64,000 bases of DNA from an uncultured Verrucomicrobiales bacterium (GCA_938091905.1 CALKOM010000023.1:64001-128000), one strand, 5' to 3'. Positions 6,101 to 22,685 are shown, counted from the stretch's first letter. Notes: generated by a model from the letters alone, not told the origin. Numbers and translations are program-made.

Positions 6101-6800
6101 ATTCACCCGGCTTTAACTCTTGCAATTCTAACATCACTCGAGCCACACCATCAACATCAGTCGCCTTCGCACTGATGACCACCGTCTCACCCGACTTAGG
6201 TTGATCTGGAAGATGCTCCACTTGGCGCACTGCAGGCGGAGGATTCTCGGTAAGCACGCTATTCACTTTGCCAGGCGTCGGTTCCACACTCGTTCGCCAA
6301 TGGCCAGAAAGGCCATTGGCCAAACCTGGATGCATCAACTCCATGCTCAGATCATTGTCATCGTCTGACCCGCCGTCGGCTCCCACCGGCCAAGGAAAGT
6401 TATCCTGATAGTTCACCTTATCGACCACCACATTCTCGGCATTGCGGAGGGTCAGGGTCTCTCCGCTATTCGAAAGCGTTCCGCTCTCCCACGCTCCCTT
6501 CGCCTTCACCCCACCGGTAAAGATCGATCCAAATTTGCGATTGTAAGCACCCTCGTCCTGCGCAAGGACCCAATAACCATCCGCGTCGATCGCAGAGCCT
6601 TCAGGAAAGACGTGCTCAATCCCTTCCGTAAACGACCAACCCGACAGATCAATCGCTCCATCGGTTGGATTGTGTAGCTCCACGAACTCAACGAATTCGG
6701 TAGGATCAGCCGGATGATAGTGAATCTCATTGATCACCACCGTTTGAGACCAGGCGCAGGGGGCGAACGCCAAGACTAGAAAGGTGAATAGCTTCTTCAT
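3102..6800 (-). CDS. Secreted lamin-tail-domain / CotH-kinase family protein with C-terminal YRVRV domain
   Basis: Signal peptide (…APCAWS). Two LTD-like domains (VVINEIHYHP..EFVELHN; LVITELMYHP..EFVELYN). CotH motifs RVRGEFS, KWKFFF, GLYLSQE, PWDLDMTF. Ends DSDGDG..GTDP..YYRVRVR. Confidence 0.85.
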   Translation of the reverse strand: MKKLFTFLVLAFAPCAWSQTVVINEIHYHPADPTEFVEFVELHNPTDGAIDLSGWSFTEGIEHVFPEGSAIDADGYWVLAQDEGAYNRKFGSIFTGGVKAKGAWESGTLSNSGETLTLRNAENVVVDKVNYQDNFPWPVGADGGSDDDNDLSMELMHPGLANGLSGHWRTSVEPTPGKVNSVLTENPPPAVRQVEHLPDQPKSGETVVISAKATDVDGVARVMLELQELKPGEYLRLSDDAYASSWESVPMNDDGTGGDAVAMDDIYSATVPVAIVAHRSLVRYRVVAEDAVGNVVRLPYEDDPSANRAFFVYDGVPAWSGSPEPGKAPKRTFTSEEMSVLPVYHLIADNADVERSQYNRGSEEVRFLGTMVYEGWVYDHVEFRVRGEFSTYQSGKNKWKFFFNRGNNFRARDNYGIAYPGGFRVMNFTACASPWVPANRGMSGLDETTAFRLQALAGVPSPKMHHLHFRVIDEAEETPSSDQYGGDLWGLYLSQETPDGRMLNRLGLPEGNTYKIEGGNGDQKHQGPIDSSYSAFISQARRSQPVEWWRENMNLSHYYGFRAINRAVGNIDIREGWNHFFYQNPNGVWSPVPWDLDMTFMPETHWSGTIDAKACLNQDEIAIEYANFCRELLDLLLEDGTAGGGQVGSVVEENLQWVGSRKDWIDVAAITKAGSKATVVTASAHDYATGDLVSIMGVAASGYNGDHEITVVDPTMFTIKVSIFSSAPSSVDGVQVGTSAGGGSVWAEIDLAMWNNHPRTTGGHTGNFYANPTTQSFRGGDLTRTLLTADVSGFAEYLKAFTTNTDPDDFSVGDGDQRGYGYNHVRKEGDDGNAPDRPTISYTGADGFPVDGLTFISGEFSGGTIFQSQEFVSMQWRLGEIYNPSTPNYEVGTPWRYEIEGVWESDLVDKITEEMTIPTNMVRPGYTYRARVRHLNQRGGWSRWSEAVEFVAGTPDLSVYDSLVITELMYHPGAPSEAELAAGFRREDFEFVELYNAGSVPLDLEPVRFTKGVDFDFVSGDVVTLAPEATVLVVGNAEAFTARYGADPLVAGVYSGRFANGGERVKLSFGAGSPIAEFSYDDSDGWPTEADGDGRSLRLRDVIGHGDLSMADAWLVGEFEGSPGSVSEGPTAPTMDSDGDGVSDESEAFAGTDPNNPADYFRLTSVQRSATPIELYWSSVVGKTYEVEYASALNADWQSIGTVTATSAESTLTDDDTTRAQVGNGYYRVRVR

Positions 6801-9802: not shown

Positions 9803-10810
9803 TCAAGACTGAGGAACTGTATTCTCGATAAAACGATAGAACAGCCGTTCGCGTGGCGAAGGTGCTGATTGGTCTTGGTAGGCGGTGGCACCGGTCCGCC
9901 CTGGATAGAAGGTCTCGATGGTCGTCCAGTTGCCATCGCCTAACAGCGTGGAACGCTCAATGTCATAGCTGACACCAAGTTCCGTTGCCCAGATAACCGT
10001 GATTTGCGTGGGGCTGTCACGAATGGCCATCGGCTCGAGGGGATCAGGAGCATCGACCGTGAGCACCAGTTCGGCTCCGCCTGGATTGTAAGTGCCTTGG
10101 GCGAACCGAAAGACGACATAGTGACCGTTCAGATACTTGTTTAAGGGATAGTAGCGAAGAATCGGGGATGTATCCGTTGTGATGAAATCTGTCTTTGCGT
10201 CCGGCGTCTCTGACAGGATAGCCATACTGAGGGAAGCCGATCCTGGATCAGTGTCCGTGACCCAAATTTCGATGGATGGCACCTTGTCTGCTGTGGCGAT
10301 GCCACCCAAACGTTGGGCATAGCCGAGGCCGTCAAAGACGATGCGTTCGTTGAACTGATAGACGACGACATGAGGCCCCGCGCCTAATCCGCCCCATTGC
10401 GCTCCGTAGTTGAAGCTGTTGTCGAGATCCGCTGGAGTGGGATTGGCATCGTAGAGGAACTCGGGAAGAAAGGTAGCACCTGTCGCGTTGGAACTACTAG
10501 TGGAGGCAATTGGGTCCTCAAGAATAAAGAGGTTCTCCTTGGGGCCGTAAGTGTTTGAAGCAGACGTTAGGGTTGCTTGCTCAGCGCCAACCTGAGATGG
10601 GTCATCGGTAAGGTGCTCTGTCCCGGCCCCTGTGGTCGCTGTGCCTTGGTTGGAAATGGCTGAATCTCCGAGTGGCAATGTGGATTCGACGGTGGTGCGA
10701 TAGATAACTTTCACCGTCTTGTCCGGAGGGAGGTCTCCTAGTGAGACAGAAACGTCTTGTGCCTGGGCGAGGCTGGCGCATGCCAACGCGAGGATGATGA
10801 GGCATTTCAT
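9803..10810 (-). CDS. Secreted protein: C-terminal half of a DUF11-like Ig domain + discoidin/F5-8-like domain + C-terminal FYR domain
   Basis: Signal peptide MKCLIILALACASLAQA. LGDLPPDKTVKVIYRTTV..ISNQGT..LTDDP (second half of DUF11-like fold). GLGYAQR..IEIWV..GHYVVFRF (discoidin-like). Tail W..YDIERST..W..FYRF. Confidence 0.6.
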   Translation of the reverse strand: MKCLIILALACASLAQAQDVSVSLGDLPPDKTVKVIYRTTVESTLPLGDSAISNQGTATTGAGTEHLTDDPSQVGAEQATLTSASNTYGPKENLFILEDPIASTSSSNATGATFLPEFLYDANPTPADLDNSFNYGAQWGGLGAGPHVVVYQFNERIVFDGLGYAQRLGGIATADKVPSIEIWVTDTDPGSASLSMAILSETPDAKTDFITTDTSPILRYYPLNKYLNGHYVVFRFAQGTYNPGGAELVLTVDAPDPLEPMAIRDSPTQITVIWATELGVSYDIERSTLLGDGNWTTIETFYPGRTGATAYQDQSAPSPRERLFYRFIENTVPQS

Positions 10811-10827
10811 AGGAATGAACGGTAATG

Positions 10828-11130
10828 TTAGGCGAAGACGGCTTCGAGTTCGAGTTTGCCCTCACGCAGATTGATGGGCACGAGAAAGATGGAAAGGGTG
10901 CCGAGTGTAGGGTGCGCTAACTCGTAAGTCCCTTGTTGGAATTCGGTGGTTTCCACCTGGATGATCAGAGAGAATGGCTTTCTTCCAGAAGTCATCGCGG
11001 TGGGAATATCGGAGACGGAAAGCAGCTTTCCCGGAATGCTCGCTTCGCTTGTCTTTAAAGTGAGCGAAGAATCAACATGAGGCTGAAAGAAGCCACTATC
11101 GACAGAAGCTAGATCAATGGAGGTGCTCAT
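10828..11130 (-). CDS. DUF6916-like small beta protein (tail-collar operon associated)
   Basis: RKPFSLI..QQGTYELAHPTLGTLSIFLVPI..LEAVF motif. Confidence 0.75.
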   Translation of the reverse strand: MSTSIDLASVDSGFFQPHVDSSLTLKTSEASIPGKLLSVSDIPTAMTSGRKPFSLIIQVETTEFQQGTYELAHPTLGTLSIFLVPINLREGKLELEAVFA

Positions 11131-11139
11131 GGGTGTGCG

Positions 11140-11634
11140 TTAGTTCAAGATAGCCTCCAGATAACACTTTCCTTCGCCGATATCGATCGGTACCAGGAAG
11201 AGCGAATGTGATTGGAGTGAGGCACTGGCCACCGTGTAGGATCCTTGCTCGAGAGGGGCTGATGCCGAATGGCTTGCCTCAAAGATGAGCTGGAAGGGAG
11301 GGCGCCGAAGCGCGTGTTTGCCGTCAGGTCGCGGGTAAACTGGCAAGTCACGCACTTCATGTAACGTGATCGGCGTCGTCCGACCATTGTCGGTGACTAG
11401 TTCGAAGGACGTGCCTTTCAGGGGCTTGTAGGTCGCGCTACTCACGGTGTTTAGGTCAAAGGCTTCGGGCTCTTGATAGTCGTGGCGTGGCACGGGTTCC
11501 ACCTTGGGGCCGCCCAGAGGCACGTCGCGGCCTTCGATGACGAGTTCTTCATTGGAAGAGTACTCTGCGGGTTTGTCACAACTCGCGAGGGCAACTGCAG
11601 GTGCAGCGATTCGAATGAAATGTCGGCGTTGCAT
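11140..11634 (-). CDS. DUF6916-like protein with Tat/lipoprotein signal
   Basis: N-terminus MQRRHFI…ALASC (twin-arginine + lipobox). C-terminus PFQLIF..LEQGSY..LFLVPI..YLEAILN is paralogous to 10828-11130. Confidence 0.7.
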   Translation of the reverse strand: MQRRHFIRIAAPAVALASCDKPAEYSSNEELVIEGRDVPLGGPKVEPVPRHDYQEPEAFDLNTVSSATYKPLKGTSFELVTDNGRTTPITLHEVRDLPVYPRPDGKHALRRPPFQLIFEASHSASAPLEQGSYTVASASLQSHSLFLVPIDIGEGKCYLEAILN

Positions 11635-11638
11635 GAGA

Positions 11639-12148
11639 TTAAGAGGTTGCTGGGATTGGCTGAGGCGATCGCTCTAACAGTTCGTAAACGCCTTGATCTT
11701 CTACAGGGAAGAAGCCCAGTCGACGGTAGAGTCGCATGGCAGGGTTGTTCTTCTCAACGTGAATGCGGACCGGTTTGTGAGACTTCAGTGCTTGCGCTAG
11801 GATGTCCTCGAGAATGCGGCCCCCGATACCGTTGCCGCGATTGGCAGGAAGCAAGGCGATGTCGATGATGCGGATTTCATCCTGACGTTCATCCAAGTAG
11901 AGGCGGCCAATAGGTTGGCCACGGGTATTGAGAATGAGGTCAAACTTGGCCTTGGCGAAGTGTTTCATGTAATGGACATGCTGCGCTTCGAACTGTTGCT
12001 GTAAGAAAGAATCGATCTGGGCCTGTGGCCATCCTGTCTGGGCGAGTTCTTCCTGTCGGGTACTCGCATAGAGGCGACACAGAAAGGCAAGGTCTGCGCT
12101 GCCTGCGTTCAGATCGGCCGAGCGAAAGCTGGTGGAGGGAACGGACAT
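11639..12148 (-). CDS. GNAT family N-acetyltransferase
   Basis: LYASTRQEEL..FLQQQFEAQHVHY; IIDIALLPANRGNGIGGRIL; NNPAMRLYRRLGF. The start could also be ATG 12160. Confidence 0.92.
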   Translation of the reverse strand: MSVPSTSFRSADLNAGSADLAFLCRLYASTRQEELAQTGWPQAQIDSFLQQQFEAQHVHYMKHFAKAKFDLILNTRGQPIGRLYLDERQDEIRIIDIALLPANRGNGIGGRILEDILAQALKSHKPVRIHVEKNNPAMRLYRRLGFFPVEDQGVYELLERSPQPIPATS

Positions 12149-12149
12149 G

Positions 12150-12773
12150 TCAGACGGCATACGATTCTTGAGTCCAGGTTCCTTGCCAGTCACTGCAACG
12201 GGCAAACTTGCTCTCTAACACTGCGACCTCATGGCGATAGGCGGCGTCGGGTTTCGGCCAAATGTCATGCCAGGTGACGCTGTAGTGGGCGGCGGCCGGT
12301 GGCGCCCATTCGAAGACGCTTGTGTGAAGGATCTCTAAGCGTTCACCATAACGCGCTTGCAGATGCGGCGCCACGAGCGTGATCACATCGGCGGATTGTT
12401 CGAGCACCGTGATGCGTTCGACGGGCGATGTTTCCGGCCGCAACAGGCATTCGATGATCATTCCCAGCCCAAGACCACTGATCAAGATGTGGCCGCCCCG
12501 TTGGAGTCCTTCGGTGATCGCTTCGCGTTGGGACCACCATTCTTCGTAGAGGTCGGTCATCATATCGATACCGCCCACTTTCAATCTGGTGTATCTGCCA
12601 GGGCGATGGAGCATCCAATGGGGCACCTCAGGGGAGGCCTCCGAGATCTGACCAGCGGGAACGACGGGCAGAGTGAAGCGTTTCACCTCCCATTCACCAG
12701 AAACGCCTTCGGGTACGTCTGACTTGTAGTAGTCAGTCGGCTCGTAAAGCTGTGATGAAAGGGAAACGGCCAT
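12150..12773 (-). CDS. Class I SAM-dependent methyltransferase (spermidine-synthase-like)
   Basis: Motif I ILISGLGLG, acidic residue at end of strand 2 (ITVLEQS), WHDIW motif. Confidence 0.7.
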   Translation of the reverse strand: MAVSLSSQLYEPTDYYKSDVPEGVSGEWEVKRFTLPVVPAGQISEASPEVPHWMLHRPGRYTRLKVGGIDMMTDLYEEWWSQREAITEGLQRGGHILISGLGLGMIIECLLRPETSPVERITVLEQSADVITLVAPHLQARYGERLEILHTSVFEWAPPAAAHYSVTWHDIWPKPDAAYRHEVAVLESKFARCSDWQGTWTQESYAV

Positions 12774-12788
12774 GGGGTGTGGTGAGAC

Positions 12789-13316
12789 CTAGCTGCGGGA
12801 AGGGTAGAGACCTTGAAGGGCGATGATGAAGTTCATGACCAAGTAAGGCTGCATGTTGTTGTGCGCCTGGCCGCCACCTGTGTTGTCGAGCTGATTGATT
12901 GCCATGGTGGCATTGCGAGTGCCGCCATAGAGATTGGTGCCACCTCCTCGACCGGCAATCTGGGCAGGGAGACCGCCTTCTGGATTGGCGTTGTTCGGAT
13001 CCTCCGCTGCACCCATGAGCCCATGGGTGTGAGAGGGCATCTGCGCTTCCGTGAGGGTCGTCGTCTCGCTTCCACCAGATTCTCCGAGTCGTCGTGTGGT
13101 CAGTCCAGGACCGCGGCCAGGGTGCATGGGGGCGCGCCCTTGGAGATTGGGCAAGGCTGTGGTGGTTCTACCGTCGCCTCCATAGGTGGTGCCAATGAGG
13201 GAGAAGAGAGCGGTATTCTGGGCGATCGGGAGCAACTGCCCATAACAGAACGCCCAGCTTCTAGGAGCAAATTTGCCAGCGAAGATGCGGATCTCAGCGA
13301 TGAAAGGTTCTGACAT
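12789..13316 (-). CDS. Phage tail collar domain protein (microcystin-dependent protein MdpB-like), copy 3
   Basis: MSEPFIAEIRIFAGKFAPRSWAFCYGQLL..ALFSLIGTTYGGDG..LPNLQGR…HNNMQPYLVMNFIIALQGLYPSR. Confidence 0.93.
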   Translation of the reverse strand: MSEPFIAEIRIFAGKFAPRSWAFCYGQLLPIAQNTALFSLIGTTYGGDGRTTTALPNLQGRAPMHPGRGPGLTTRRLGESGGSETTTLTEAQMPSHTHGLMGAAEDPNNANPEGGLPAQIAGRGGGTNLYGGTRNATMAINQLDNTGGGQAHNNMQPYLVMNFIIALQGLYPSRS

Positions 13317-13899
13317 GAAGATAGAAGCTTGAGTTAGTTTCGGGATGGGAAGAGGCCGAAGAGCGCCACGATGAAATTCACGCAGACGAAAGGTTGGACA
13401 TTGTCATGCGCTTGGCTGCCTCCCGTGTGTCCGATCGCATCTGCGTTCATGGCAGCGCGTTGTGTGGCACCGGCCTTGTAGGTGAGAATGGTGCCTCCGG
13501 GATTGGCAAAGATGGCACCATCGGGAGAGTTGGCCGTGCCTGTACCCGTGGTCCCTCGCGAGGTATGCGTGTGGGAGCCGATCTGTGAGGCTGAGAGAAT
13601 CTCACCCTCCTGCCCCGACTTGCTTCCGAGGGGGCGGTTGGACAGTCCTGGGCCCCAGCCTTGGTGAATGGGAATGCGCCCACGCATGTCTGGTAGGCCA
13701 AAGGTGGTGCGGCCGTCGCCACCGTAGGTTGTGCGTAACAAACTGAAGAGCACGTCATTCTGAGCGACGCCTATCAATTGCCCGTCACAGAACGCCCAGC
13801 CTCTGGGAGCGAATCTCCCAGCAAACATTCTGATTTCGCCTACAAACGGTTCTGACATGAAAATAGAAGCTTGAGTTAGTTTCGGGATGGGAAGAGGCC
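13306..13899. repeat. 52-bp direct repeat (13306-13357 and 13848-13899, 51/52 identical) spanning both collar-gene junctions
   Basis: ggttctgacatgaa[g/a]atagaagcttgagttagtttcgggatgggaagaggcc occurs twice. Confidence 0.9.
13334..13858 (-). CDS. Phage tail collar domain protein (MdpB-like), copy 2
   Basis: MSEPFVGEIRMFAGRFAPRGWAFCDGQ..TTYGGDGRTTFGLPDMRGR…HDNVQPFVCVNFIVALFGLFPSRN. Confidence 0.93.
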   Translation of the reverse strand: MSEPFVGEIRMFAGRFAPRGWAFCDGQLIGVAQNDVLFSLLRTTYGGDGRTTFGLPDMRGRIPIHQGWGPGLSNRPLGSKSGQEGEILSASQIGSHTHTSRGTTGTGTANSPDGAIFANPGGTILTYKAGATQRAAMNADAIGHTGGSQAHDNVQPFVCVNFIVALFGLFPSRN

Positions 13900-14382
13900 T
13901 CGCATGGCGATGCAGAAGGCGAGGGTCGTGTAAGGCTGCATGTTGTTGTGCGCCTGCCCACCGGCATTGGCGAGCATGCCAGGGTCCATGCTGGCGTTAG
14001 GTGTACCGCCAATGTTGAACAAATTTAGGCTTGCAGTGTTGGAAGCGAAGTAGTTTCCCCCAACTGTGGAGGCGGCTGCCGTCGTATTGGAAACCCGCAC
14101 GGTGTGCCGATGCGGTGGAATCTCTGAGGCGTCGAGCAAGTGCGTTTCATAGCCGCCCTTATGGCCCAGGGAGTGACCATTGCCCTCTTGGATGGGCGTG
14201 CGCCCCCGCAAATCAGGAAGCCCAAAGGACGTGCGACCGTCGCCACCGTAGGTTGTGCCTAACAAACTGAAGAGGGACTGGTTCTGATTGATTGGCAAGA
14301 TCTGCCCATCGCAGAAGGCCCAACCCCGAGGGGCAAAGTTGAATCCCACGATACGAATTTCTGCAAGAAAGGGTTCTGACAT
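13876..14382 (-). CDS. Phage tail collar domain protein (MdpB-like), copy 1
   Basis: MSEPFLAEIRIVGFNFAPRGWAFCDGQ..LFSLLGTTYGGDG..LPDLRGR…HNNMQPYTTLAFCIAMRGLFPSRN. Confidence 0.93.
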   Translation of the reverse strand: MSEPFLAEIRIVGFNFAPRGWAFCDGQILPINQNQSLFSLLGTTYGGDGRTSFGLPDLRGRTPIQEGNGHSLGHKGGYETHLLDASEIPPHRHTVRVSNTTAAASTVGGNYFASNTASLNLFNIGGTPNASMDPGMLANAGGQAHNNMQPYTTLAFCIAMRGLFPSRN

Positions 14383-14406
14383 AGGTGTGAAGTCTGAAAT
14401 CTCAAA

Positions 14407-17304
14407 TTAAGGGACGACGACGGATGGGTCTGTTGGATCCGTGCTCGACAGGTTGACTGTGCCATTCACGATCGATGCCTGGCCGTTCAAGTTGGTGCCT
14501 TGGTCGGCAATGACGCCATCGACTGTCCCCGCGCTTGAGCCATCGATGAACAAGTGGACATTGGCAGAAGTGGCGACGTCGAATTCAAAGGCGTTGTGGG
14601 CAAAGCCAGCATCGAAATCGACAAAGATCTGGTCGCTCGAAGAAGCCGTTTGGAACTCAACGCTCTTGTCGCTGCGGAAGTTAAACATCGTGTCGTGATC
14701 CGGAATGATTTGGTTCTGTTTCTCGATGTGCACTTCGCCGCCGTTGCGCGTGTTGTGGACGATCGACTCGTAGGGAAACTCTTGGGTTGCTGACACGCCG
14801 AGGTCCGTGTTGTCGGCATTGCCACTGGTGACGTCGTGGATGATCTCATTACTCACGAAATGATGGTAGTGCTCGGCATTGTCCGTATCCGTGCGGGCAA
14901 TGTGTCCCCAGACTTCACGGTGCGTGTTGTTCTGAACGATGCTTTCCCCGGTGGTTCCATCTTTCGCGGTGATGTTTAGGCTCGCGCCAAATTGGGCTGC
15001 ATTGTCGCCTTGCAGGCCTTCGAGCGTGTTGTTCGTGAAGATCGCTTCAAAGGTGCTTCCAGTTCCGCCGATGATCATTTCGACTTCACCCTGGGGGAAG
15101 CCTTTGAAGGCGAAGCTACTTCCGGCATCGGTAAGATGATCGGTGACTTGGAAGGTGTTGCGCGAGACGTGCACATCGAGATCTCCAGAGAAGGCAGGCG
15201 CATTCGGCGCCGTTCGGATATTCATGGAACCGTAGTCACCTTTGCCACAATTTAGAAACGTATTGCCTAACAAATCCTCTAAGTCGGCAAGATCACCGAT
15301 GATGATGTCTGCTGTGACTGAACCGGCCACATAAACTTCCAAGCCAGCAGCGCCGACACTCACATCAGCACTGGTGAACTCTTTCAAGGATCGCTCAAAG
15401 TGATTGCGCGTCAGGTCGAATCGAACACTACCACTATCCGCAGTGATGAACTGAGCTAAACCAGATCCATGCTGGAAGGTGTTGTTATCCAAGGTCACCT
15501 GACCGCTGATGCCGTGAACTCGGATCATGGATTCACGGAAGACCGAGCGGGTGTCGTCACCGATATTTCCAGGCAGATGGAAACGATTTGTATCCGTGAT
15601 AGATGAGTTGGTGATCTCAAGGCCGACCAAGGTTGTCCGTTCGGTGTAGGTGACGGGCACATCGAATGGCGTGGCATTGATGGCGCAATCACTGACGTTA
15701 TCGATCCGCACGCGGTCGAGACTCAAACCACCTGCGAGTGCCGCCGCATGAATGGCATCGGCACCGCTTTGATAAGTGGTCGTGAGCATGGCGTCATCCG
15801 TGCCGTTGATGTCATTGATATCGAGATTTCTCAGGGTCATCAAGCCGGCGTTGGCAGCCAGGCGAACAGCATCAACGTCAGTCTTGTTCGTGATAAAGCC
15901 TGCGCTCCCCAAGGTCGTGCCTGTGCCTGTGAGCGTGAATGGCCCAACAGTGCCGAGAACTTGAAGGCCAGGCTCAGTGCCGCCAGTCGATTCGATGCGT
16001 TCCAAACTCACACCAGCCCCCGCCACCCCAAGTGTCGTGCTTTGCAGATTGACAGCTCCGCCACTCTCACAAATGACCTTGGATCCCGAAGCGAAATTCA
16101 CTGTTGTCTGGTTGGCGCCGAGACCCGCAAAGAGGATCCCTTGGCCACCGCCCGTGCACTGCAGATCCACCATTCCAAAGTTCGCGTTGCCCGATACATT
16201 TAGAGCCCGAATCCCGTTCTGACTTCCTCCATTCTTCACGATGGAATCGAAGCTGACGTTCAAGTTGCCTCCATTGAGAGCGAGGCTTCCCCCTGATCCA
16301 GAGATGGCCATTTCGCGAATCACTAGACTGCCAAACGTGGTCCCAGCGATCGCAGCGAGATCCGTGTCGGCGATGTTTAGACCGCGCAGCACGTTCGCCG
16401 CGGCCAAGTTGATAGCATTTCCGCTAGAAGTATTCAAAACCGGGCGGGCACCTTGACTCGGCAAAGCAAGCGAATGGGGAGGAAGCGTGAGCCCGCAGAA
16501 GTCGTGGAGGCTTTGGCTAGATCCCTGGCCCATGACGCGTTGATTGTTCGCTAGATTGAGACTGTCATTGTAACTACCCGAGTAGATAAACAAACAATCG
16601 CCATCGGCATCCATGGCGTTGCTGTTGTGCTGCGCGAGGGTCTGGAATGGACTGCCCAGACGTCCATCGCCCGCCGAGGGATTTGAATCGTCAAAGAACC
16701 AGATCATCCCAGTGACGTTGATGCTCACCTCGACGACGCCATTGCCTGTGCTGGCATCATTGAGAGCATCTTCATCTGTGATCACGTAGGTGAACGTATC
16801 CGCGCCCTGAAACCCGACAGCAGGCATGTAAGTGAATGCGCCATTCAGGCTCATGCTGACCTGCCCGCCACCTGATGTGGCGATGCTTGGGGGACCGGCT
16901 TGAAGATCGCTGATACCGTTCCCGTTTGTTCCGTCCGGATCACGGTCATTAGCCAACACCCCTGCTGCTGCTGCCACCTGTATGCCGACATTCCCCATGC
17001 AGTCATAGCTGTCGTCCAAGGCAATGGGCGTCACCATGACGGAATCGCCTATTAACGTAGTGTTCGCATCGACCGCGGTTTCATAAACGAGATCCGTACC
17101 GCTGAAGCCGCTGGTATTGGTGATCTCGGCTTCCAGAGTGATGCTCTCACCAGGATTGGCTTTGCCGTCCGTCTTCACTTCCTCCCCCAGAGTATCGTCC
17201 AGGGTGATGTCCAGGTTCGGGGTGGGAACGCCAGCGATCGCCAGCCACGTGCCAATGCCAATCACGGGTAGGCAGACGATTCCGAGTAGAGTTTGATGTT
17301 TCAT
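14407..17304 (-). CDS. Large secreted adhesin-like protein: N-terminal half of DUF11-like domain + Big_9/cadherin-like Ig + right-handed beta-helix
   Basis: Signal peptide. DGKANPGESITLEAEITN..DANTTLIGDSV (first half of DUF11-like fold). PIALDDSY..GVLANDRDPDG..GAFTYMPAVGFQGADTFTYVITD (Big_9). GDGRLGSPFQTL and Asn/Gly-rich 'xxNxF' repeats (beta-helix). Confidence 0.75.
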   Translation of the reverse strand: MKHQTLLGIVCLPVIGIGTWLAIAGVPTPNLDITLDDTLGEEVKTDGKANPGESITLEAEITNTSGFSGTDLVYETAVDANTTLIGDSVMVTPIALDDSYDCMGNVGIQVAAAAGVLANDRDPDGTNGNGISDLQAGPPSIATSGGGQVSMSLNGAFTYMPAVGFQGADTFTYVITDEDALNDASTGNGVVEVSINVTGMIWFFDDSNPSAGDGRLGSPFQTLAQHNSNAMDADGDCLFIYSGSYNDSLNLANNQRVMGQGSSQSLHDFCGLTLPPHSLALPSQGARPVLNTSSGNAINLAAANVLRGLNIADTDLAAIAGTTFGSLVIREMAISGSGGSLALNGGNLNVSFDSIVKNGGSQNGIRALNVSGNANFGMVDLQCTGGGQGILFAGLGANQTTVNFASGSKVICESGGAVNLQSTTLGVAGAGVSLERIESTGGTEPGLQVLGTVGPFTLTGTGTTLGSAGFITNKTDVDAVRLAANAGLMTLRNLDINDINGTDDAMLTTTYQSGADAIHAAALAGGLSLDRVRIDNVSDCAINATPFDVPVTYTERTTLVGLEITNSSITDTNRFHLPGNIGDDTRSVFRESMIRVHGISGQVTLDNNTFQHGSGLAQFITADSGSVRFDLTRNHFERSLKEFTSADVSVGAAGLEVYVAGSVTADIIIGDLADLEDLLGNTFLNCGKGDYGSMNIRTAPNAPAFSGDLDVHVSRNTFQVTDHLTDAGSSFAFKGFPQGEVEMIIGGTGSTFEAIFTNNTLEGLQGDNAAQFGASLNITAKDGTTGESIVQNNTHREVWGHIARTDTDNAEHYHHFVSNEIIHDVTSGNADNTDLGVSATQEFPYESIVHNTRNGGEVHIEKQNQIIPDHDTMFNFRSDKSVEFQTASSSDQIFVDFDAGFAHNAFEFDVATSANVHLFIDGSSAGTVDGVIADQGTNLNGQASIVNGTVNLSSTDPTDPSVVVP

Positions 17305-17611: not shown

Positions 17612-20600
17612 TCAGTCGGGCGCGTTCGGGGGTAGTCTTGCTTCATCCCCCTGCTCCGTTTCGGCATCGATCGCTACGGGCATCTCGGATGGGCTAGATT
17701 CTTGCACCGGTTGGACATTGATATCCACATCCACGGGCACGGCACGGAGCTTGTTAATGATGTCTTCTAACTTCGCTATTGTCGCATCTGCTAGAGTCGC
17801 GGGCTGCTGCTGATGAGCCAAGGAAGCTGCAAGAACCTCCTGGATGCGATCCGTACTGGCATTGAAGGCGGCCAGTTGGCCAACCACGCGTGAAACAGGA
17901 TCGTTGTCGCGCGCACCTCCCGTGAGGAGGTTGCGCGCGAAGGTCTTCTTGATCTCTTCCCAGCGCACGGAGTCTTCTTCTGTTAGGAATCCTTCAAGGT
18001 CTTGGAACTTCAACAGGTTGGCTTCGGCACCGGTCGTCAGCGTTTGAGATTCATTCTCGTAGTGATCCTTGATAACGTTGATCACTTCTTCCTCCGTCAT
18101 GATGGGCAGGATCTTTTCCGCCATGCGATTCATGTTTCTGTAAGAACCCTGAAGCTTAAATGGCGGCTCGGTGCGGTACTCGTCCGACTGCGCAGCGGAG
18201 CGAATGTATTCCAAGTTTACCCGCAGGACGGTGTCACGCACGCGCATGAGCTTGGTCATGACATCGACCATCTCACTGACCTCCTCCGGCGTGTAGTTGC
18301 CTTCGAAATCGACGCCATCAGCCGTGCCATTGCGAGCGATTTGAATGATCGCATGCACGTCTTTCTGGCTGCGCGATCCCAGGGGTGCGAGAATGGCGTT
18401 ACTCGTCAGACAGTTCTCCAAATAGGAATCCTCAAACGCCTGCTGATGGGTACCGACGATATCACCGAGGTTGTAGGTATCGGCCCGGTTGGCCAGCATG
18501 TCAGGAATCTGAAACTTGCCTCCGCTTTCCGTGTAAGGATTGCCCGCCATCACGACAGCGACCTTGCGGCCACGCAAATCGTAGGTCCGGGCCACGCCAT
18601 CGTAGACGCCCTCAATGCGTCGCTGGCCGTCGCAAAGTGAGATGAACTTCTGCAAGAACTCGGGATCACAGTGCTGAATGTCATCGAGGTAGATCATGAC
18701 ATTGTCTCCCATCTCAAGAGAGAGATTGAGCTTCTTGACCTCTTCTCGGGCACTTGCGTTAGGCGCTTCTACCGGATCGAGCGAGCGCACTTGGTGACCA
18801 AGAGCCGGCCCATTGACCTTCACAAAGGTCAATCCTAACCGATCCGCCATGTATTCCATCAAGGTCGTTTTACCGTAACCCGGCGGCGAGATAAGTAAAA
18901 GCAAGCCCATCCGGTCGGTGCGCGTGTCGGCCCCTGCCACACCAATCTGCTTGGCCAAGTTATCGCCAATCATCGGCAAGTAAACTTCGTCCAGCAACCG
19001 GTTCCGTACAAAGGAACTCATGATCCGTGGCTTGAACTCGTCCAATCGCAATAACTCACGTTTGTCCACCGTCAGCGTGTGTTTGATCTCTGTGTAGCGC
19101 TGAAAGAGAGGCAGCGTCTGGCGCTCAAATCTGGCGAGCTTGCTTAGAAACTTGGTGTAGTGGAGGTGATAGTTTCCCTGCGCGATCACAGCATGATTGC
19201 CTAACATGCCATCGATATCAGATTCCAACGGCACCTCAACAACCTCGGCACTTTGCACACCGCCTCGCAAGAGATGGGCAGCCGCCTCATCAAGATACGC
19301 ATGACTGGAATCGAAAGCCCGTAGCCAATCGCGGATGACCTCAAACTCATCTTGAGGGAACTTGGCCAACTTCTTGCGCGCTGCTTCGAAGGCCGATTGC
19401 TGGCGTTTCGTTGCGAGCCCTTTCTGAAAAGCACTCACCAGGGACGCGGCTTCGGCGCTCACGGTGAAACTCGCGCCATCCACCATCTCGTGAAAGAGAT
19501 AGGCTGCGGTCTCCTCAGCGCCGTCGCCTAACCATTGCTGCAATCTCTCGATGTAGGTCGTTTGCAAGGCAGGCGCCTCGTCGAAAGCGCTGCGAACGGC
19601 ACCGAAAGATTCTAGCTGATGAAAGAGACGCTGTTTCTCATGATCTTCTTTCCAAGCTCTCCACGCCACAATACCTTGAGCACGCACTGCTGGATCATAG
19701 CGTAAGAGTCCCGCTTTGGCCTGCAACGGAAGGAGCCGTTTTAAAATACAGAAAGCGTCATGGTCATGGACCCCCTTGGTGTAGCCTTCGGCATAACGAG
19801 GTGCCATGAACTTTCGTAAGACTTCCAGCTCGACTTCCAGGTCACCCACATGCTCTTGGAAATAGCGATAGGCTAGGTACTCACCCCGGTAAACCTCTGA
19901 GCTTTCCGATAGGACTTCTTGGCTCCACGCAGGCTGCGTTTCCAAAAACACCGGATCCTTAATCGGCTCAAAGAAATTCGTGCCCGTGAGGTGGAAGCAC
20001 ATCGCCTCGTCGCGAGGCACGACGGTGAGCTCCAGCGTCTGTTGATTCACGGAGAATCGATGCTTTCCTAGTTGAATAATCGCCTTGCCATCGACGAACA
20101 GTTCCTTGCGATCCTTGAGCTGACGAACAGCATCCTCACGTTGACTCTTCAGCTTTGCCTGAATGGCATCCGCTTTGACCGAGTCACCGAGATCTTGCAA
20201 CTGCGTGACGATGTCACGCACCTTCTCAATCATCAGATCAGATGCCAAGTAGGCGTTGATCTCGTGGAGTTCTTGAAAGCCGTCGAGCCGATTGTGAATA
20301 CTCTGGAAGATGCGTTCGGCAGACTTTTCCAGGTTGGCAGCGCGCTTGTTGCGCGATTCTAACAAGCTGACTTTGCGAGCCTCAAACGCATCGTATATTT
20401 CGGTGCGTTTCTCGCCAAGCTCAGCCACATAATCATCGAACTCGGCATACTTGCCTTCGAGTTCCTCCAGCTGGACCATCGTCTTGCTCAAGTAAGACTC
20501 ACACTTCTCTGGCGAATCACACAGTTCGAGGTAGTTGACCACGGCCTGATTGAGCAACTTAAGCTGCGCCTGAAACTGAGCAGCGCCTTCCTCACGCCCA

Positions 20601-22621
20601 AGCTCACGCAAGGTATTCTTCAAGGTCACACGGACTTGATTCAGCGTGCCGTAGATATCGGAAATGCCATCGATAATCTGAGTGGTCTGCGTCGCGTCCT
20701 CGATCTTGAGGTTGCTCACGATGTCGATGAGCATCTCCAGCTCTTCTCCCGTCTTTCCTAGCTCTTCGTCAATGACCTTGCCTTCGGCAGCCTTGGAAAT
20801 CTTCTCGATCGCGACCTGCTGTTGTTCAACCTGATCTCGGTAAGGTCTTAGCGAATCGTCCTTGAGCAGAAACTCCACACAATGTCCCGAGACCCGTTCC
20901 GCCACCTCCTGGACTTCTGATTCCAAGGCCTCAAGCTGCTCGATATTGACATACCGGACATCGCGCAAGGAGATGACTTCACCACGCACGCCTCGCAAGT
21001 CTGCTAGATGATGCACATAGCCCATGATATCATCCGGGCGACTGTGTTCCGCTTTAGAAATAAGCTTTCGCGCACGCTCAGTGAGCGCCGTGGTCTGGGC
21101 CGTAGCGGATTTGCGCAGGCGGGTGACCTTCTCAAATTCCGCAATGGCAGATTCCGCAGCCGTCTGTATCGCCCCTAACGGTTCACTTAGAACATAGGCT
21201 TCCTTCTGACCTACCCAGAAATACGAGTTGCTGACATCCGAGGCTTTCTTGGCCAAGTCATGATAGAGATTTGCATACGCATCGTCCTTGCCCAGGAGAT
21301 TGAGCACTTCGTGGCACTCTGCCATGCAACGCACAATGTCCGCATTGCCCAATTTGTAGAGATAGTGATCCCTCTGCGCCGAAGGAGCTTGGGCATCAGC
21401 ATCGATGTAGGGCGTTTGCCATACCTGGAGAGCGTGATGCTTCTGTGGCTGATCTTCGGTTCGGAAATAGATCAGTTCACCATCCTCGAACACGCTGTAG
21501 CCTGAACAACTGATCGGCGTGTCAACTTGCTGATCAATGATGTTGTAAGACATTAGCACGTAGTCGCCAGAAGCGCGATTGTAGAAGACGTAAAGGTGGT
21601 CCTCGCCATTCGGCGCTGCGAGACGACGCTCAAAGATCATGTCCTTGGGCCCACTTTCAAACAGCTTCGTTTCGCCACTTTGCAGGTGAAAGCCATTCGA
21701 GAAGATGATGCCATGCTCGTCGGGCAAGAGCACACAAGCATTCTCAATCGCATCAAAGCGCTGCACCGTCTTGAGCTTCTCATTGAAGACGAGGTAACGA
21801 AAATCGTTTTCTTGATAGGGTCGTATCTTCAGAACAATAAGACTGCCGATGATCGTGTAGAAGATCTCAGCATCATCGAGCGTCTGATCTGCCTCCGTCA
21901 CCGGCTCAGCATAGATGCCTTCGCCACTGCTGGTGTTGTCTTCAACCTTAACAGTGAGATCTCCACCGACGGTTTCAACAAAGACTCGGTCTTCGATCGA
22001 GACATGAGGATGCTCGCCGCCACGCTGCATGTCACGGTGCGCACGGGTCCATTCAAAGTCTTGCTGCCTCGGGAAACTATACTCGTGATCCGATCGATTC
22101 CCCTGGTAGACTAACGTTCCGTCATCTCGCAGAAGCCATTTGAACGTCTTGACGTCCGTGACATCCCGCCCGGCGCGAAAGGCCATGTAGAGGTGGGGCC
22201 CAATGACGAGGAACTTCGCAAAGACCGTGTCGCGGTAGTACTTGTAGAGATGGCCGAAGTCATGGAGGAAACTGTCGTCGCCCAAGATATCATCTAGCGG
22301 GACTGCGGTGAACGCATGCGTGGCGTTTTCATAGTGGTAAGCCGCAAAGACATCCGAAGGCGCGGTGGTCGACTTTAGACCAATGTGTACATTGAACCCA
22401 AAGAGAAAACGCCCCTGACCGATCGCTACCATATCGCGCGGCACACAGTTGTGCTGCGTGGTGACACGTTCTGTGGCAATGAGGCTGGGCTCGATCGCGC
22501 CAAAGACATCTTGGCGTTCTCGATTCAGCGACTCAAGCCGTCCGCGCAAGTCATCGCCTTGTGCTTGCAAGCGCTGGCGGATGACCTCGTAGGCACCTGA
22601 TTCTAACGTTTCTTCCGGCAT
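17612..22621 (-). CDS. Giant AAA+ ATPase ('DNA repair ATPase', DUF3686-type) with long coiled coil
   Basis: About 1670 aa. N-terminus GAYEVIRQRL, central coiled coil, Walker A SPPGYGKTT, Walker B MIYLDD, sensor MAGNPY. Start placed at ATG 22621 because the upstream 21 nt overlap a palindromic repeat. Confidence 0.8.
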   Translation of the reverse strand: MPEETLESGAYEVIRQRLQAQGDDLRGRLESLNRERQDVFGAIEPSLIATERVTTQHNCVPRDMVAIGQGRFLFGFNVHIGLKSTTAPSDVFAAYHYENATHAFTAVPLDDILGDDSFLHDFGHLYKYYRDTVFAKFLVIGPHLYMAFRAGRDVTDVKTFKWLLRDDGTLVYQGNRSDHEYSFPRQQDFEWTRAHRDMQRGGEHPHVSIEDRVFVETVGGDLTVKVEDNTSSGEGIYAEPVTEADQTLDDAEIFYTIIGSLIVLKIRPYQENDFRYLVFNEKLKTVQRFDAIENACVLLPDEHGIIFSNGFHLQSGETKLFESGPKDMIFERRLAAPNGEDHLYVFYNRASGDYVLMSYNIIDQQVDTPISCSGYSVFEDGELIYFRTEDQPQKHHALQVWQTPYIDADAQAPSAQRDHYLYKLGNADIVRCMAECHEVLNLLGKDDAYANLYHDLAKKASDVSNSYFWVGQKEAYVLSEPLGAIQTAAESAIAEFEKVTRLRKSATAQTTALTERARKLISKAEHSRPDDIMGYVHHLADLRGVRGEVISLRDVRYVNIEQLEALESEVQEVAERVSGHCVEFLLKDDSLRPYRDQVEQQQVAIEKISKAAEGKVIDEELGKTGEELEMLIDIVSNLKIEDATQTTQIIDGISDIYGTLNQVRVTLKNTLRELGREEGAAQFQAQLKLLNQAVVNYLELCDSPEKCESYLSKTMVQLEELEGKYAEFDDYVAELGEKRTEIYDAFEARKVSLLESRNKRAANLEKSAERIFQSIHNRLDGFQELHEINAYLASDLMIEKVRDIVTQLQDLGDSVKADAIQAKLKSQREDAVRQLKDRKELFVDGKAIIQLGKHRFSVNQQTLELTVVPRDEAMCFHLTGTNFFEPIKDPVFLETQPAWSQEVLSESSEVYRGEYLAYRYFQEHVGDLEVELEVLRKFMAPRYAEGYTKGVHDHDAFCILKRLLPLQAKAGLLRYDPAVRAQGIVAWRAWKEDHEKQRLFHQLESFGAVRSAFDEAPALQTTYIERLQQWLGDGAEETAAYLFHEMVDGASFTVSAEAASLVSAFQKGLATKRQQSAFEAARKKLAKFPQDEFEVIRDWLRAFDSSHAYLDEAAAHLLRGGVQSAEVVEVPLESDIDGMLGNHAVIAQGNYHLHYTKFLSKLARFERQTLPLFQRYTEIKHTLTVDKRELLRLDEFKPRIMSSFVRNRLLDEVYLPMIGDNLAKQIGVAGADTRTDRMGLLLLISPPGYGKTTLMEYMADRLGLTFVKVNGPALGHQVRSLDPVEAPNASAREEVKKLNLSLEMGDNVMIYLDDIQHCDPEFLQKFISLCDGQRRIEGVYDGVARTYDLRGRKVAVVMAGNPYTESGGKFQIPDMLANRADTYNLGDIVGTHQQAFEDSYLENCLTSNAILAPLGSRSQKDVHAIIQIARNGTADGVDFEGNYTPEEVSEMVDVMTKLMRVRDTVLRVNLEYIRSAAQSDEYRTEPPFKLQGSYRNMNRMAEKILPIMTEEEVINVIKDHYENESQTLTTGAEANLLKFQDLEGFLTEEDSVRWEEIKKTFARNLLTGGARDNDPVSRVVGQLAAFNASTDRIQEVLAASLAHQQQPATLADATIAKLEDIINKLRAVPVDVDINVQPVQESSPSEMPVAIDAETEQGDEARLPPNAPD

Positions 22622-22628
22622 GATAAAG

Positions 22629-22678: not shown

Positions 22679-22685
22679 ATTACGA

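What the first reader, a model, noticed from the sequence alone, without database searches (positions are those of the whole stretch)
10565..17220. Split DUF11-like Ig domain: two separately secreted proteins may lock together by fold complementation
Seen: the mature 14407-17304 protein begins with the first half of a DUF11-type Ig domain (NLDITLDD..DGKANPGESITLEAEITN..TDLVYETAVDANTTLIGDSV, ~17220-17025), then switches to Big_9 and a beta-helix and never completes the fold. The mature 9803-10810 protein begins with what looks like the missing second half (VSLGDLPPDKTVKVIYRTTVESTLP..ISNQGTAT..LTDDP..ATLT, ~10757-10565). Each gene has its own signal peptide, so this does not look like a simple broken gene. 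Only the second carries the C-terminal putative sorting domain. Inference: the halves reconstitute one Ig fold non-covalently (a natural tag/catcher pair), tethering the adhesin to an anchored partner.
Basis: partly seen in the sequence, partly recalled or inferred. Interest (0 to 1): 0.85.

Follow-up and report, generated by a model that had tools for sequence, protein, structure and literature searches.

The report
One Ig domain split between two proteins
Two separately exported proteins in one operon each start with a complementary half of a single DUF11/CLIPPER Ig-like domain, and fused relatives plus modelling suggest the halves lock together to join the two proteins.

Summary
Mature protein A (14407-17304, minus strand) begins with the first half of a DUF11/CLIPPER-type Ig domain at 17029-17226. 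Mature protein B (9803-10810, minus strand) begins with the second half at 10559-10756. Neither protein, nor any other ORF in the window, carries the other half.

In giant repeat proteins, hits to the two halves alternate with a ~125-145 aa period. Those repeats score as genuine DUF11.

In 7 related loci both halves sit in one polypeptide, flanking a 773-1061 aa Big_9/beta-helix insert. In at least 6 others they are split between neighbouring genes, as here. The second half occurs in 13 of 16 loci that have the first half and in 0 of 63 without it.

A complex model co-folds the two halves: score 0.75, best control 0.00.

The pairing should be non-covalent. A lacks the isopeptide Lys and Asp that all 7 fused relatives keep.

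No binding has been measured. This is a new trans variant of the known in-cis "split domain" principle.

The parts
14407..17304 (-). Gene A, 965 aa from the ATG (968 aa from the TTG at 17313): leader, first half of a DUF11/CLIPPER domain, Big_9 domain, then about 770 aa of beta-rich, probably beta-helix region.
   Evidence: ORF. P0016 is 100% identical and starts at the ATG. Big_9 E 1.1e-10. Pfam Beta_helix is seen only in relatives: P0022 E 0.0036 and an L009 fragment E 8.4e-5. AF2 residues about 200-380 have pLDDT 76-93; the rest is low.
17230..17304 (-). Predicted leader of A (residues 1-25): a basic start, about 16 hydrophobic residues, and an Ala-Ile-Ala site just before the half-domain.
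   Evidence: Read from the translation. Relatives have comparable leaders directly before their first half. No predictor was run, so an uncleaved membrane anchor is not excluded.
17029..17226 (-). A-half: first half of the split DUF11/CLIPPER Ig domain. The isopeptide Lys position holds Leu and the catalytic Asp position holds Thr.
   Evidence: Custom HMM E 6e-15. The A-family profile (alignment A4) aligns to the first half of the solved CLIPPER structure 9IFR, chain positions 10-57 of 123, E 0.03. Triad columns. Residues 22-61 and 64-68 of the modelled fragment form the interface.
16747..17031 (-). Big_9 bacterial Ig domain, directly after the A-half.
   Evidence: Pfam PF17963, E 1.1e-10, residues 95-189 in TTG numbering.
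13876..14382 (-). Phage-tail Collar domain protein 1 (168 aa), no leader.
   Evidence: Pfam Collar E 7e-29. Orthologue next to A-like genes in 13 loci.
13334..13858 (-). Phage-tail Collar domain protein 2 (174 aa).
   Evidence: Pfam Collar E 5.2e-27.
12789..13316 (-). Phage-tail Collar domain protein 3 (175 aa).
   Evidence: Pfam Collar E 3.6e-26 and Gp10_C E 9.9e-6.
12150..12773 (-). 207-aa protein with no known family.
   Evidence: No Pfam or NCBIfam hit. One relative in the equivalent position in L010, E 1e-50.
11639..12205 (-). GNAT acetyltransferase. The listed start overlaps the previous gene by 56 nt, so the real start is probably further in.
   Evidence: Pfam Acetyltransf_1 E 2.8e-10. 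Conserved in the cassette.
11140..11634 (-). DUF6916 protein (164 aa) whose N-terminus looks like an Arg-Arg/lipoprotein-type leader.
   Evidence: Pfam DUF6916 E 1.2e-15. The leader is read from the translation and is an inference.
10828..11130 (-). DUF6916 protein (100 aa).
   Evidence: Pfam DUF6916 E 1.1e-17. Conserved in the cassette in 8 loci.
9803..10810 (-). Gene B, 335 aa: signal peptide, second half of the DUF11/CLIPPER domain, a discoidin-like middle domain, and a C-terminal seven-strand beta domain.
   Evidence: ORF. Homologues P0003 (99%) and P0004 (76%) keep the same N-terminus.
10760..10810 (-). Signal peptide of B (residues 1-17), ending Ala-Gln-Ala.
   Evidence: Read from the translation. 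P0004 has an equivalent leader. No predictor was run.
10559..10756 (-). B-half: second half of the split DUF11/CLIPPER Ig domain. The isopeptide Asn and the invariant Gln are retained.
   Evidence: Custom HMM E 6e-22. phmmer with B residues 18-90 gave 142 hits at E<=1e-3, most of them inside DUF11-type repeats. Weak DUF7927 match to profile positions 70-117 of 132. Interface residues; Asn column.
10025..10528 (-). Middle domain of B (about residues 95-262), discoidin-like by homology only.
   Evidence: 45-47% identical to domains of P0005-P0009, of which P0006 was re-scanned here. In P0006 the domain scores F5_F8_type_C at 27.4 bits against a 28.2 cutoff. B itself has no Pfam hit.
9806..10024 (-). 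C-terminal beta domain of B (about residues 263-335). It is FN3-like in shape and is not a recognised sorting signal.
   Evidence: Seven predicted strands, pLDDT 60-71. Conserved in P0005-P0010. No Pfam or NCBIfam hit.

Best explanation
A and B are the two parts of a DUF11/CLIPPER (CnaA-like) Ig domain that is 'split' by a large insert. In relatives, one chain runs: leader, first half, Big_9, beta-helix, long low-complexity linker, second half, further domains. The Ig domain closes around the insert and can be locked by its Lys-Asn isopeptide.

In this genome the chain is divided just before the second half. A carries the first half plus the insert. B has its own signal peptide, the second half, and a discoidin-like plus beta-domain cargo.

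Proposed mechanism:
1. Both proteins are exported by Sec.
2. Neither half folds alone.
3. On meeting, B's first long strand inserts between two strands of the A-half, and the two halves co-fold into one beta-sandwich.
4. The result is a stable but non-covalent A-B heterodimer, because the Lys and the catalytic Asp are gone from A.

What is shown: the complementary homology, the fused and split relatives, the synteny, and the missing triad residues.
What is inferred: export, co-folding in the cell, and the purpose of the heterodimer.

The purpose probably relates to the conserved Collar x3 / GNAT / DUF6916 cassette that lies between the two genes.
For: 1. Complementary halves.
- A-half and B-half hits alternate in tandem repeats, and those repeats are DUF11 above threshold.
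- The window holds exactly one of each half.

2. Fused forms.
- L001, L002, L005, L006, L007, L008 and L011 each have the first half near the N-terminus and the second half 773-1061 aa later in the same ORF (L007's second half only at E 1e-3).
- A has 873 aa after its first half, which is within that range.
- A is 38-42% identical to L001, L008 and L006 over about 300-384 aa.

3. Split forms in neighbouring genes.
- L009 has the same operon order as the window.
- L012 has the second half in the next gene.
- L003 and L014 have it in the third gene. L010 and L015 have it in the upstream gene. L016 has it in the downstream gene.
- At E<=1e-3 the second half occurs in 13 of 16 loci with a first half and in 0 of 63 without one (Fisher 2e-12).
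- Of the three misses, L004's contig ends where its relatives carry the gene, L007 is just at the threshold, and L055 is a different protein.

4. Complex model.
- ipSAE 0.75, 0.77 and 0.74; best of 3 controls 0.00.
- This mark was reached by 116 of 157 solved complexes and by 2 of 215 mismatched pairs. These counts hold only roughly here, because my own alignments were used.
- 260-272 contacts; the runs agree in at least 95% of contacts; partner pLDDT 80-83.
- B residues 15-22 of the fragment pair with A-fragment residues 31-38 and 64-68.
- Within the same method, the B-half next to an unrelated chain has pLDDT 33, and the A fragment next to unrelated partners has pLDDT 49-54.

5. AF2 on each whole protein alone leaves both halves below pLDDT 50.

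6. Triad.
- Canonical repeats keep Lys in 500, Asp in 576 and Asn in 593 of 621.
- All 7 fused relatives keep Lys (alignment A4) and Asp.
- Window A, P0017, P0018, L003, L004, L009, L012 and L014 have neither (0 of 8).
- The solved CLIPPER domain uses Lys715, Asp748 and Asn806, per passages of PMC12617251.
Against: - No binding has been measured.
- The complex pass may reflect the model's memory of single-chain Ig/DUF11 folds. Halves of a split domain tend to pass for that reason.
- Pfam does not call DUF11 on A or B themselves, and the B-half profile does not hit 9IFR.
- The AF2 single-chain runs used shallow alignments (12 and 15 rows) and were poor overall (mean pLDDT 47 and 49). Low confidence in the halves is therefore weak evidence.
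- Seven genes separate A and B.
- L003 and L014 have two lone first halves for one lone second half. Lone N-terminal second halves are common: 36 of 141 representative proteins. The partner may therefore not be unique.
- Only 64 kb of this genome was seen.
- The route beyond Sec export and the site of assembly are unknown.
- The tree needs only one split/fused change, with weak support (70/26), so the direction (fission or fusion) is open.
Confidence: 0.65

Rival explanations
1. Promiscuous docking. The halves do complement, but not as an exclusive A-B pair. B's N-terminal half would be a general docking module that fits first halves on several proteins, or A would accept several second-half proteins encoded elsewhere in the genome.
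For: 36 of 141 representative proteins start with Met and carry a second half within their first 70 residues with no first half before it, followed by very different downstream domains. L003 and L014 have two lone first halves and one lone second half. The partner's cargo differs between loci: discoidin-like here, unrelated in L009, beta-helix-like in L012, giant DUF11 stalks in L010 and L015.
Against: In the window and in every informative split locus, the two halves are encoded within a few kb of each other. The window has exactly one of each. Fused forms imply a 1:1 origin.
Confidence: 0.17
2. Relics. The halves are leftovers of a gene fission or rearrangement. They no longer pair and serve only as flexible N-terminal linkers or are disordered.
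For: Both halves are predicted disordered when alone. The isopeptide residues in A are lost. The isopeptide Asn is lost in 11 of 36 lone second halves against 28 of 621 canonical ones.
Against: The halves are conserved across phyla at full length: E 4e-18 and 1e-19 in L009, 1e-21 and 6e-18 in L012. B's half is conserved in P0004 at about the level of the rest of the protein. The core hydrophobic pattern and the invariant Gln are kept. The interface is confidently predicted.
Confidence: 0.1
3. Self-sufficient units. Each half is completed in cis or by self-association, for example the A-half packing on the adjacent Big_9 domain or forming homodimers, so that no A-B contact is needed.
For: The first-half-plus-Big_9 unit recurs as a block in many proteins. 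P0019 has it in front of nine Big_9 repeats with no second half seen in that partial sequence.
Against: Among the related loci, a second half is found in cis or next door in all but one (13 at E<=1e-3, L007 at the threshold; L004's contig ends before the syntenic gene). The A fragment including Big_9 stays at pLDDT 49-54 without B and rises to 75-83 with it. AF2 of whole A leaves residues 1-51 and 65-99 below 50.
Confidence: 0.08

Closest known systems
DUF11 / CLIPPER domain (PF01345), a CnaA-like intramolecular isopeptide domain; crystal structure 9IFR (PMC12617251, passages read)
   Same: The A-half and B-half are homologous to the first and second halves of DUF11-type repeats. It is the same family of secreted or surface stalk domains.
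   Different: Here the domain is divided between two polypeptides. A lacks the Lys and Asp of the Lys-Asp-Asn triad, so no isopeptide is expected. Neither protein alone reaches the Pfam threshold.
CnaA/CnaB-type domains with nested adhesive inserts in Gram-positive tip pilins (RrgA; GBS104 in PDB 3TXA, residues 137-211 plus 587-717; Spy0125), as tabulated and cited in PMC12617251
   Same: One Ig-like domain is built from two distant segments that flank a large inserted module. The fused relatives L001, L002, L005-L008 and L011 have exactly this layout and keep the triad. L001 is even followed by a SpaA_4 domain.
   Different: Those are single chains locked by an isopeptide and polymerised by sortases. 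The window's version is two chains, has no Lys or Asp, and comes from what is probably a Gram-negative (PVC-like) organism.
Ig-like 'split domains' of RTX adhesins (AhLap, FrhA) that project ligand-binding domains (PMC12077191, passages read; PMC10865825, search listing only)
   Same: A beta-sandwich is interrupted by a module that buds out and then returns to finish the fold. This gives a functional reading of the insert as the working or ligand-binding part.
   Different: In RTX adhesins the split is always in cis and the proteins leave by type I secretion. Here the return strands are supplied by another gene product.
Donor-strand complementation in chaperone-usher and type V pili (recalled; a related Gram-positive case appears only as a search listing, 10.64898/2026.10.17.759780)
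   Same: An incomplete Ig fold in one secreted protein is completed by strands from another.
   Different: Pili donate one strand, polymerise head to tail, and need a chaperone and usher or a protease. Here about half a domain (roughly 65 residues, several strands) is donated, a 1:1 pair is expected, and no such accessory genes lie in the operon.
SpyTag/SpyCatcher and related engineered split isopeptide domains (recalled)
   Same: Two fragments of an isopeptide-type Ig domain reconstitute the fold in trans.
   Different: Those are engineered, use a 13-residue tag, and bond covalently. The window pair is natural, split near the middle, and lacks the reactive Lys and Asp.

Membership tests
DUF11 / CLIPPER (PF01345) | Sequence match to the family profile above the gathering score | tested here: not met
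   No DUF11 hit on A, B or their N-terminal fragments at E<=10. Homology is transitive only: A's relatives hit positions 11-53 of 114 at E 2e-4 to 1.5e-3, and repeats that match both halves score 60-72 bits against a 24.6 cutoff.
DUF11 / CLIPPER (PF01345) | A complete seven-to-nine-strand CnaA-like beta-sandwich within one chain | tested here: not met
   A holds only the first half and B only the second. A complete sandwich is predicted only for the pair.
DUF11 / CLIPPER (PF01345) | Lys-Asp-Asn isopeptide triad (Lys715/Asp748/Asn806 in 9IFR). The paper notes that some DUF11 domains lack it. | tested here: not met
   A has Leu at the Lys column and Thr at the Asp column; B keeps Asn. Equating the Lys column with Lys715 is an inference from the motif. 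The 9IFR alignment starts after an insertion that is specific to this subfamily.
Ig-like split domain with a nested insert (RTX-adhesin or tip-pilin type) | Two segments of one Ig domain flank an inserted module in a single polypeptide | tested here: not met
   Met by 7 relatives but not by the window, where the two segments lie in different genes separated by seven genes.
Donor-strand-complemented pili (chaperone-usher or type V) | Dedicated chaperone and usher (or protease) genes, and a single-strand donor | tested here: not met
   None of the nine operon proteins matches such families in Pfam or NCBIfam. The donated piece is about 65 residues.
C-terminal sorting signals (PEP-CTERM, T9SS C-terminal domain, LPXTG and similar) on B | Match to a sorting-signal model, or a terminal hydrophobic helix followed by a basic tail | tested here: not met
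   No NCBIfam or Pfam hit on B or on its last 81 residues at E<=10. B ends in a polar tail. Relatives P0012, P0013 and P0015 carry a hydrophobic-plus-basic tail (my reading: PEP-CTERM-like) in place of the C-terminal domain.
Big_9 (PF17963) | Profile match above the gathering score | tested here: met
   A residues 95-189, 42.7 bits against a 23.6 cutoff.

The most novel reading that the evidence does not exclude
The split DUF11/CLIPPER domain is a natural two-part docking system, not a one-off fission. A roughly 65-residue second half sits directly behind the signal peptide of many different secreted proteins and would act as a portable 'plug'. A first half on Big_9/beta-helix proteins, which are linked to the Collar x3/GNAT/DUF6916 cassette, would act as the 'socket'. 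Modular extracellular complexes would then be assembled after export by co-folding.

In lineages where the split pair keeps the whole Lys-Asp-Asn triad across the two genes, docking would end in a self-catalysed intermolecular isopeptide bond. L010 (Rhodanobacteraceae) and L015 (Thermoanaerobaculia) are such cases. That would be a natural counterpart of SpyTag/SpyCatcher.
Probability: 0.25. Interest if true: 0.9.

Novelty: new variant of a known kind. Interest (0 to 1): 0.78.

Why it matters
Ig-like domains that are 'split' by an inserted working module are known, but only within one chain (tip pilins, RTX adhesins). Completion of an Ig fold by another protein is known, but only as single-strand donation in pili.

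A natural pair of separately exported proteins that each carry half of one Ig domain would be a third way to assemble surface or secreted complexes. The fused and split versions sit side by side in related genomes, which gives a clean evolutionary series.

It would also give protein engineers natural, already co-evolved split-domain pairs: non-covalent ones here, and possibly covalent ones in relatives that keep the isopeptide triad.

Finally, it gives a first handle on an uncharacterised, widely distributed gene cassette (three tail-collar-domain proteins, a GNAT and DUF6916). A full-text search for DUF6916 found no paper.

Tried and rejected
- Pfam and NCBIfam on the whole proteins and on the N-terminal fragments gave no DUF11 call at E<=10. 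The case therefore had to be made through relatives.
- A PDB sequence search with a giant repeat protein found nothing. The B-half profile found only chance-level hits and no 9IFR.
- AF2 of whole B (mean pLDDT 47) and whole A (mean pLDDT 49) was too poor for a fold search. B's middle and C-terminal domains stay named by homology and strand count only.
- A tree of the A-like N-terminal 350 residues had 17 rows. L009 was left out because its A gene is broken into 260-aa and 444-aa ORFs in that MAG. The tree could not show repeated fission: one change suffices, support 70/26. I considered and dropped the claim of multiple independent splits.
- I considered a Thr-Gln ester-bond domain for the conserved Thr and Gln. 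I dropped it because the His/Asp motif I recall for that family is absent; this rests on memory only.
- PADLOC found no defence family in the operon.
- The promoter and terminator scan gave fewer sites than shuffled sequence.
- Literature searches gave the following:
  - 'naturally split' + isopeptide: 9 papers, 8 listed, all on other topics by title and abstract start.
  - 'CLIPPER domain' + adhesin: only the survey paper, which contains the word 'split' 0 times.
  - 'fold complementation' + Ig-like + secreted: one pilus preprint.
  - 'phage tail collar domain' + acetyltransferase: 3 unrelated papers.
- Not checked:
  - The metagenome and viral contig collections, which were closed.
  - The rest of this genome.
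  - The supplementary tables of PMC12617251, which list DUF11 domains lacking the bond.

Full report
WHAT IS THERE

The region is a nine-gene, same-strand (minus) cluster.
- A: 14407-17304.
- Three phage-tail Collar-domain genes: 12789-14382.
- A 207-aa protein with no family: 12150-12773.
- A GNAT acetyltransferase: 11639-12205.
- Two DUF6916 genes: 10828-11634.
- B: 9803-10810.

The flanking genes look unrelated. Upstream is a 1676-aa DUF3686/AAA protein. Downstream are a PadR regulator and an LTD/CotH protein.

CHECKING THE OBSERVATION

Pfam and NCBIfam find no DUF11 on A or B, even on the isolated N-termini at E<=10.
- B's N-terminus gives one weak match, to positions 70-117 of the 132-position DUF7927 model (E 0.044).
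- DUF7927 is listed among the CnaA-like isopeptide families together with DUF11 in PMC12617251.

The case was therefore made through relatives.
- phmmer with B residues 18-90 against 1.84 billion representative proteins gave 142 hits at E<=1e-3 and 41 at E<=1e-10.
- The top hits are giant proteins with up to 30 matched stretches.
- In those proteins, hits to A's N-terminal fragment and to B's fragment alternate A-B-A-B with a period of about 125-145 residues.
- The A fragment hits 93 of the 141 proteins examined.
- Two small examples of these repeats, P0075 and P0160, score as DUF11 at 60 and 72 bits (cutoff 24.6) over model positions 10-99 and 10-105 of 114. That span covers one first half plus one second half.

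I built half-domain HMMs from these repeats and scanned all 909 ORFs of the window.
- The first-half HMM hits only A, at 17029-17226 (E 6e-15).
- The second-half HMM hits only B, at 10559-10756 (E 6e-22).
- The next best ORFs score E 0.59 and 0.14.

The HMMs were seeded by A and B themselves, so the independent evidence is the alternation and the DUF11 scores, not the window hits.

THE DECISIVE COMPARISON: FUSED AND SPLIT RELATIVES

A scan of one genome per species with the A-family alignment returned 79 loci. Sixteen of them carry a first half at E<=1e-3. Fifteen of those are in A-like proteins; L055 is another kind of protein.

Fused forms (seven loci).
- In seven loci the same ORF carries the second half 773-1061 residues downstream of the first half.
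- The loci are L001 and L008 (Chloroflexota), L002 (Acidobacteriota), L005, L007 and L011 (Bacteroidota) and L006 (a Bacillota MAG).
- L007's second half is only at E 1e-3.
- A has 873 residues after its own first half, so A ends where these proteins begin their second half.
- In the three fused forms inspected (L001, L006, L008) the second half is preceded by a long low-complexity stretch ending in a Ser/Ile-Gly-Glu motif.
- The same Gly-Glu motif follows the signal peptide of several proteins with a lone second half.

Split forms.
- L009 (Verrucomicrobiales) has A, three Collar genes, GNAT, DUF6916 and then a 553-aa protein that begins with a signal peptide and a second half. This is the window's order, although that protein's cargo is unrelated to B's.
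- In L012 (Victivallales) the next gene begins with a signal peptide, a second half and a beta-helix-like region.
- In L003 and L014 (Saprospiraceae) the second half is in the third gene.
- In L010 and L015 an upstream giant gene begins with a signal peptide and a second half.
- In L016 a downstream giant gene does the same.
- L004's contig ends before the syntenic third gene.

Overall the second half is present in 13 of 16 first-half loci and in 0 of the 63 others (Fisher 2e-12).

A tree of the A-like N-terminal regions needs only one split/fused change, with weak support (70/26). The tree had 17 rows, and L009 was left out because its A gene is broken in that MAG. I cannot say whether fission or fusion came first, or how often either happened.

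MODELLING

The A fragment (residues 25-200, 13-row alignment) was folded with the B fragment (residues 18-95, 35-row alignment).
- Score (ipSAE) 0.75, 0.77 and 0.74; best of 3 controls 0.00.
- The mark was reached by 116 of 157 solved complexes and by 2 of 215 mismatched pairs. These counts hold only roughly, because my own alignments were used.
- The three runs agree in at least 95% of their contacts, and the partner's pLDDT is 80-83.
- The interface is very large, at 260-272 contacts.
- It covers almost the whole A-half (fragment residues 22-61 and 64-68) and the whole B-half.
- B's first long strand lies between two A-half strands.
- With unrelated partners the B-half drops to pLDDT 33 and the A fragment to 49-54.

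AF2 on each whole protein alone was poor overall (mean pLDDT 47 and 49, with shallow alignments). It left B residues 1-117 and A residues 1-51 and 65-99 below 50.

These results are what co-folding of one domain predicts. However, halves of a known single-chain fold can pass from the model's memory. This is support, not proof.

WHAT KIND OF DOMAIN, AND COVALENT OR NOT

DUF11 was renamed CLIPPER in 2025 and shown by crystallography (9IFR) to be a CnaA-like domain.
- It has a self-formed Lys715-Asn806 isopeptide catalysed by Asp748.
- The same paper notes that CnaA and CnaB folds tolerate large inserts, as in RrgA, GBS104 and Spy0125.
- These points come from passages of PMC12617251.
- The A-family profile (alignment A4) aligns to the first half of 9IFR, chain positions 10-57 of 123 (E 0.03).

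In canonical repeats of this subfamily the three columns hold Lys in 500, Asp in 576 and Asn in 593 of 621 repeats.
- All seven fused relatives keep Lys (alignment A4) and Asp, and keep Asn.
- Window A has Leu and Thr at the Lys and Asp columns.
- The same loss is seen in P0017, P0018, L003, L004, L009, L012 and L014, so 0 of 8 keep either residue.
- B keeps Asn. L009 and L012 have lost Asn as well.
- Among lone N-terminal second halves that start with Met, Asn is lost in 11 of 36, against 28 of 621 canonical repeats (Fisher 1.6e-6).

The window pair should therefore associate without a covalent bond.

Two split loci are different. In L010 and L015 the A-like protein keeps Lys and Asp, and the neighbouring lone second half keeps Asn.

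Equating this subfamily's Lys column with Lys715 is an inference from the strand motif.

- B's C-terminal 73 residues match no sorting-signal model. They are a conserved seven-strand beta domain shared with relatives P0005-P0010.
- Three relatives (P0012, P0013, P0015) end instead in a hydrophobic-plus-basic tail, which I read as PEP-CTERM-like.
- There is therefore no evidence that B is the anchored partner.
- 'Adhesin' for A is a guess. Only Big_9 is called on A, and beta-helix is seen only in relatives.

WIDER CONTEXT

- The Collar1-Collar2-Collar3-GNAT (often plus DUF6916) cassette lies next to the A-like gene in 13 loci from several phyla.
- It lies upstream of the fused gene in L002, L005, L007, L008 and L011.
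- It lies between A and B in the window and in L009.
- The split domain therefore belongs to a larger, uncharacterised system.
- No paper in the library mentions DUF6916, and PADLOC finds no defence family.

COMPARISON AND NOVELTY

- This is seen in RTX adhesins (PMC12077191, passages).
- It is also seen as nested CnaA-like domains in tip pilins.

The window's form has the two segments in two separately exported proteins and no isopeptide residues. I could not find it described: searches returned nothing of the kind, and the CLIPPER survey never uses the word 'split'.

It works like donor-strand complementation, but it donates half a domain rather than one strand, and no chaperone or usher genes are present.

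I rate it a new variant of a known kind, with high interest. It is well supported in silico but entirely untested at the bench.

LIMITS

- Only 64 kb of this genome was seen.
- No signal-peptide predictor was available.
- No coordinates from the models could be inspected beyond the contact summary.
- No supplementary tables were read.

Noticed in passing
window 10828-14382; loci L002, L005, L007-L013, L015-L017, L034: A conserved cassette of three paralogous tail-Collar-domain proteins in fixed order, a GNAT and usually DUF6916 lies next to the A-like gene in 13 loci from several phyla. The Collar proteins have no leaders. No paper in the library mentions DUF6916. Function unknown.
   Followed up: partly
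L010:2-13303 and L015:3101-13123: These are split pairs in which the A-like protein keeps the isopeptide Lys and Asp, and the neighbouring giant protein starts with a signal peptide and a lone second half that keeps Asn. This is a candidate natural intermolecular isopeptide pair.
   Followed up: partly
representative proteins P0088, P0099, P0119, P0120, P0123, P0126, P0135, P0154, P0155, P0159 and others: 36 of 141 representative proteins start with Met and carry a second half directly behind the leader, followed by very different downstream domains. This looks like a widespread N-terminal module.
   Followed up: partly
L003:13687-16389 and L014:41-2506: In the Saprospiraceae loci a second gene carries another lone first half, this time near its C-terminus (residues about 750-809 of about 900). 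These loci therefore hold two first halves and one second half.
   Followed up: no
L001:13079-13321, L006:12548-12790, L008:13319-13561: In these three fused forms the second half is preceded by a long low-complexity linker ending in a Ser/Ile-Gly-Glu motif. The same Gly-Glu motif sits right after the signal peptide in several lone second-half proteins.
   Followed up: no
L001:9977-13669: In the fused Anaerolineales protein, the second half is followed by a SpaA_4 (CnaB-like isopeptide family) domain (E 2.3e-13). This layout recalls Gram-positive tip pilins.
   Followed up: no
window 16747-17031: The Big_9 part of the A-family profile matches solved phage 'collar sheath protein gp13' chains (8fwc, E 1.2e-5) and an RTX protein (E 2.7e-6). 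This is curious given the tail-Collar genes next door, but it may only reflect a common Ig-like repeat.
   Followed up: no
window 17612-24788: A 1676-aa DUF3686 / DUF7902 / AAA protein with a weak LmuB-like hit in PADLOC (E 9e-7) sits beside a 700-aa Band_7 protein. It was not linked to the operon by any evidence.
   Followed up: no
window 3102-6800: A 1232-aa protein with Lamin-tail, CotH kinase-like and TSP3 repeats. Its C-terminus gave the only other, chance-level, second-half HMM hit (E 0.14).
   Followed up: no
window 12150-12205: The GNAT ORF as listed overlaps the end of the 207-aa gene by 56 nt, so its true start is probably a later codon.
   Followed up: no
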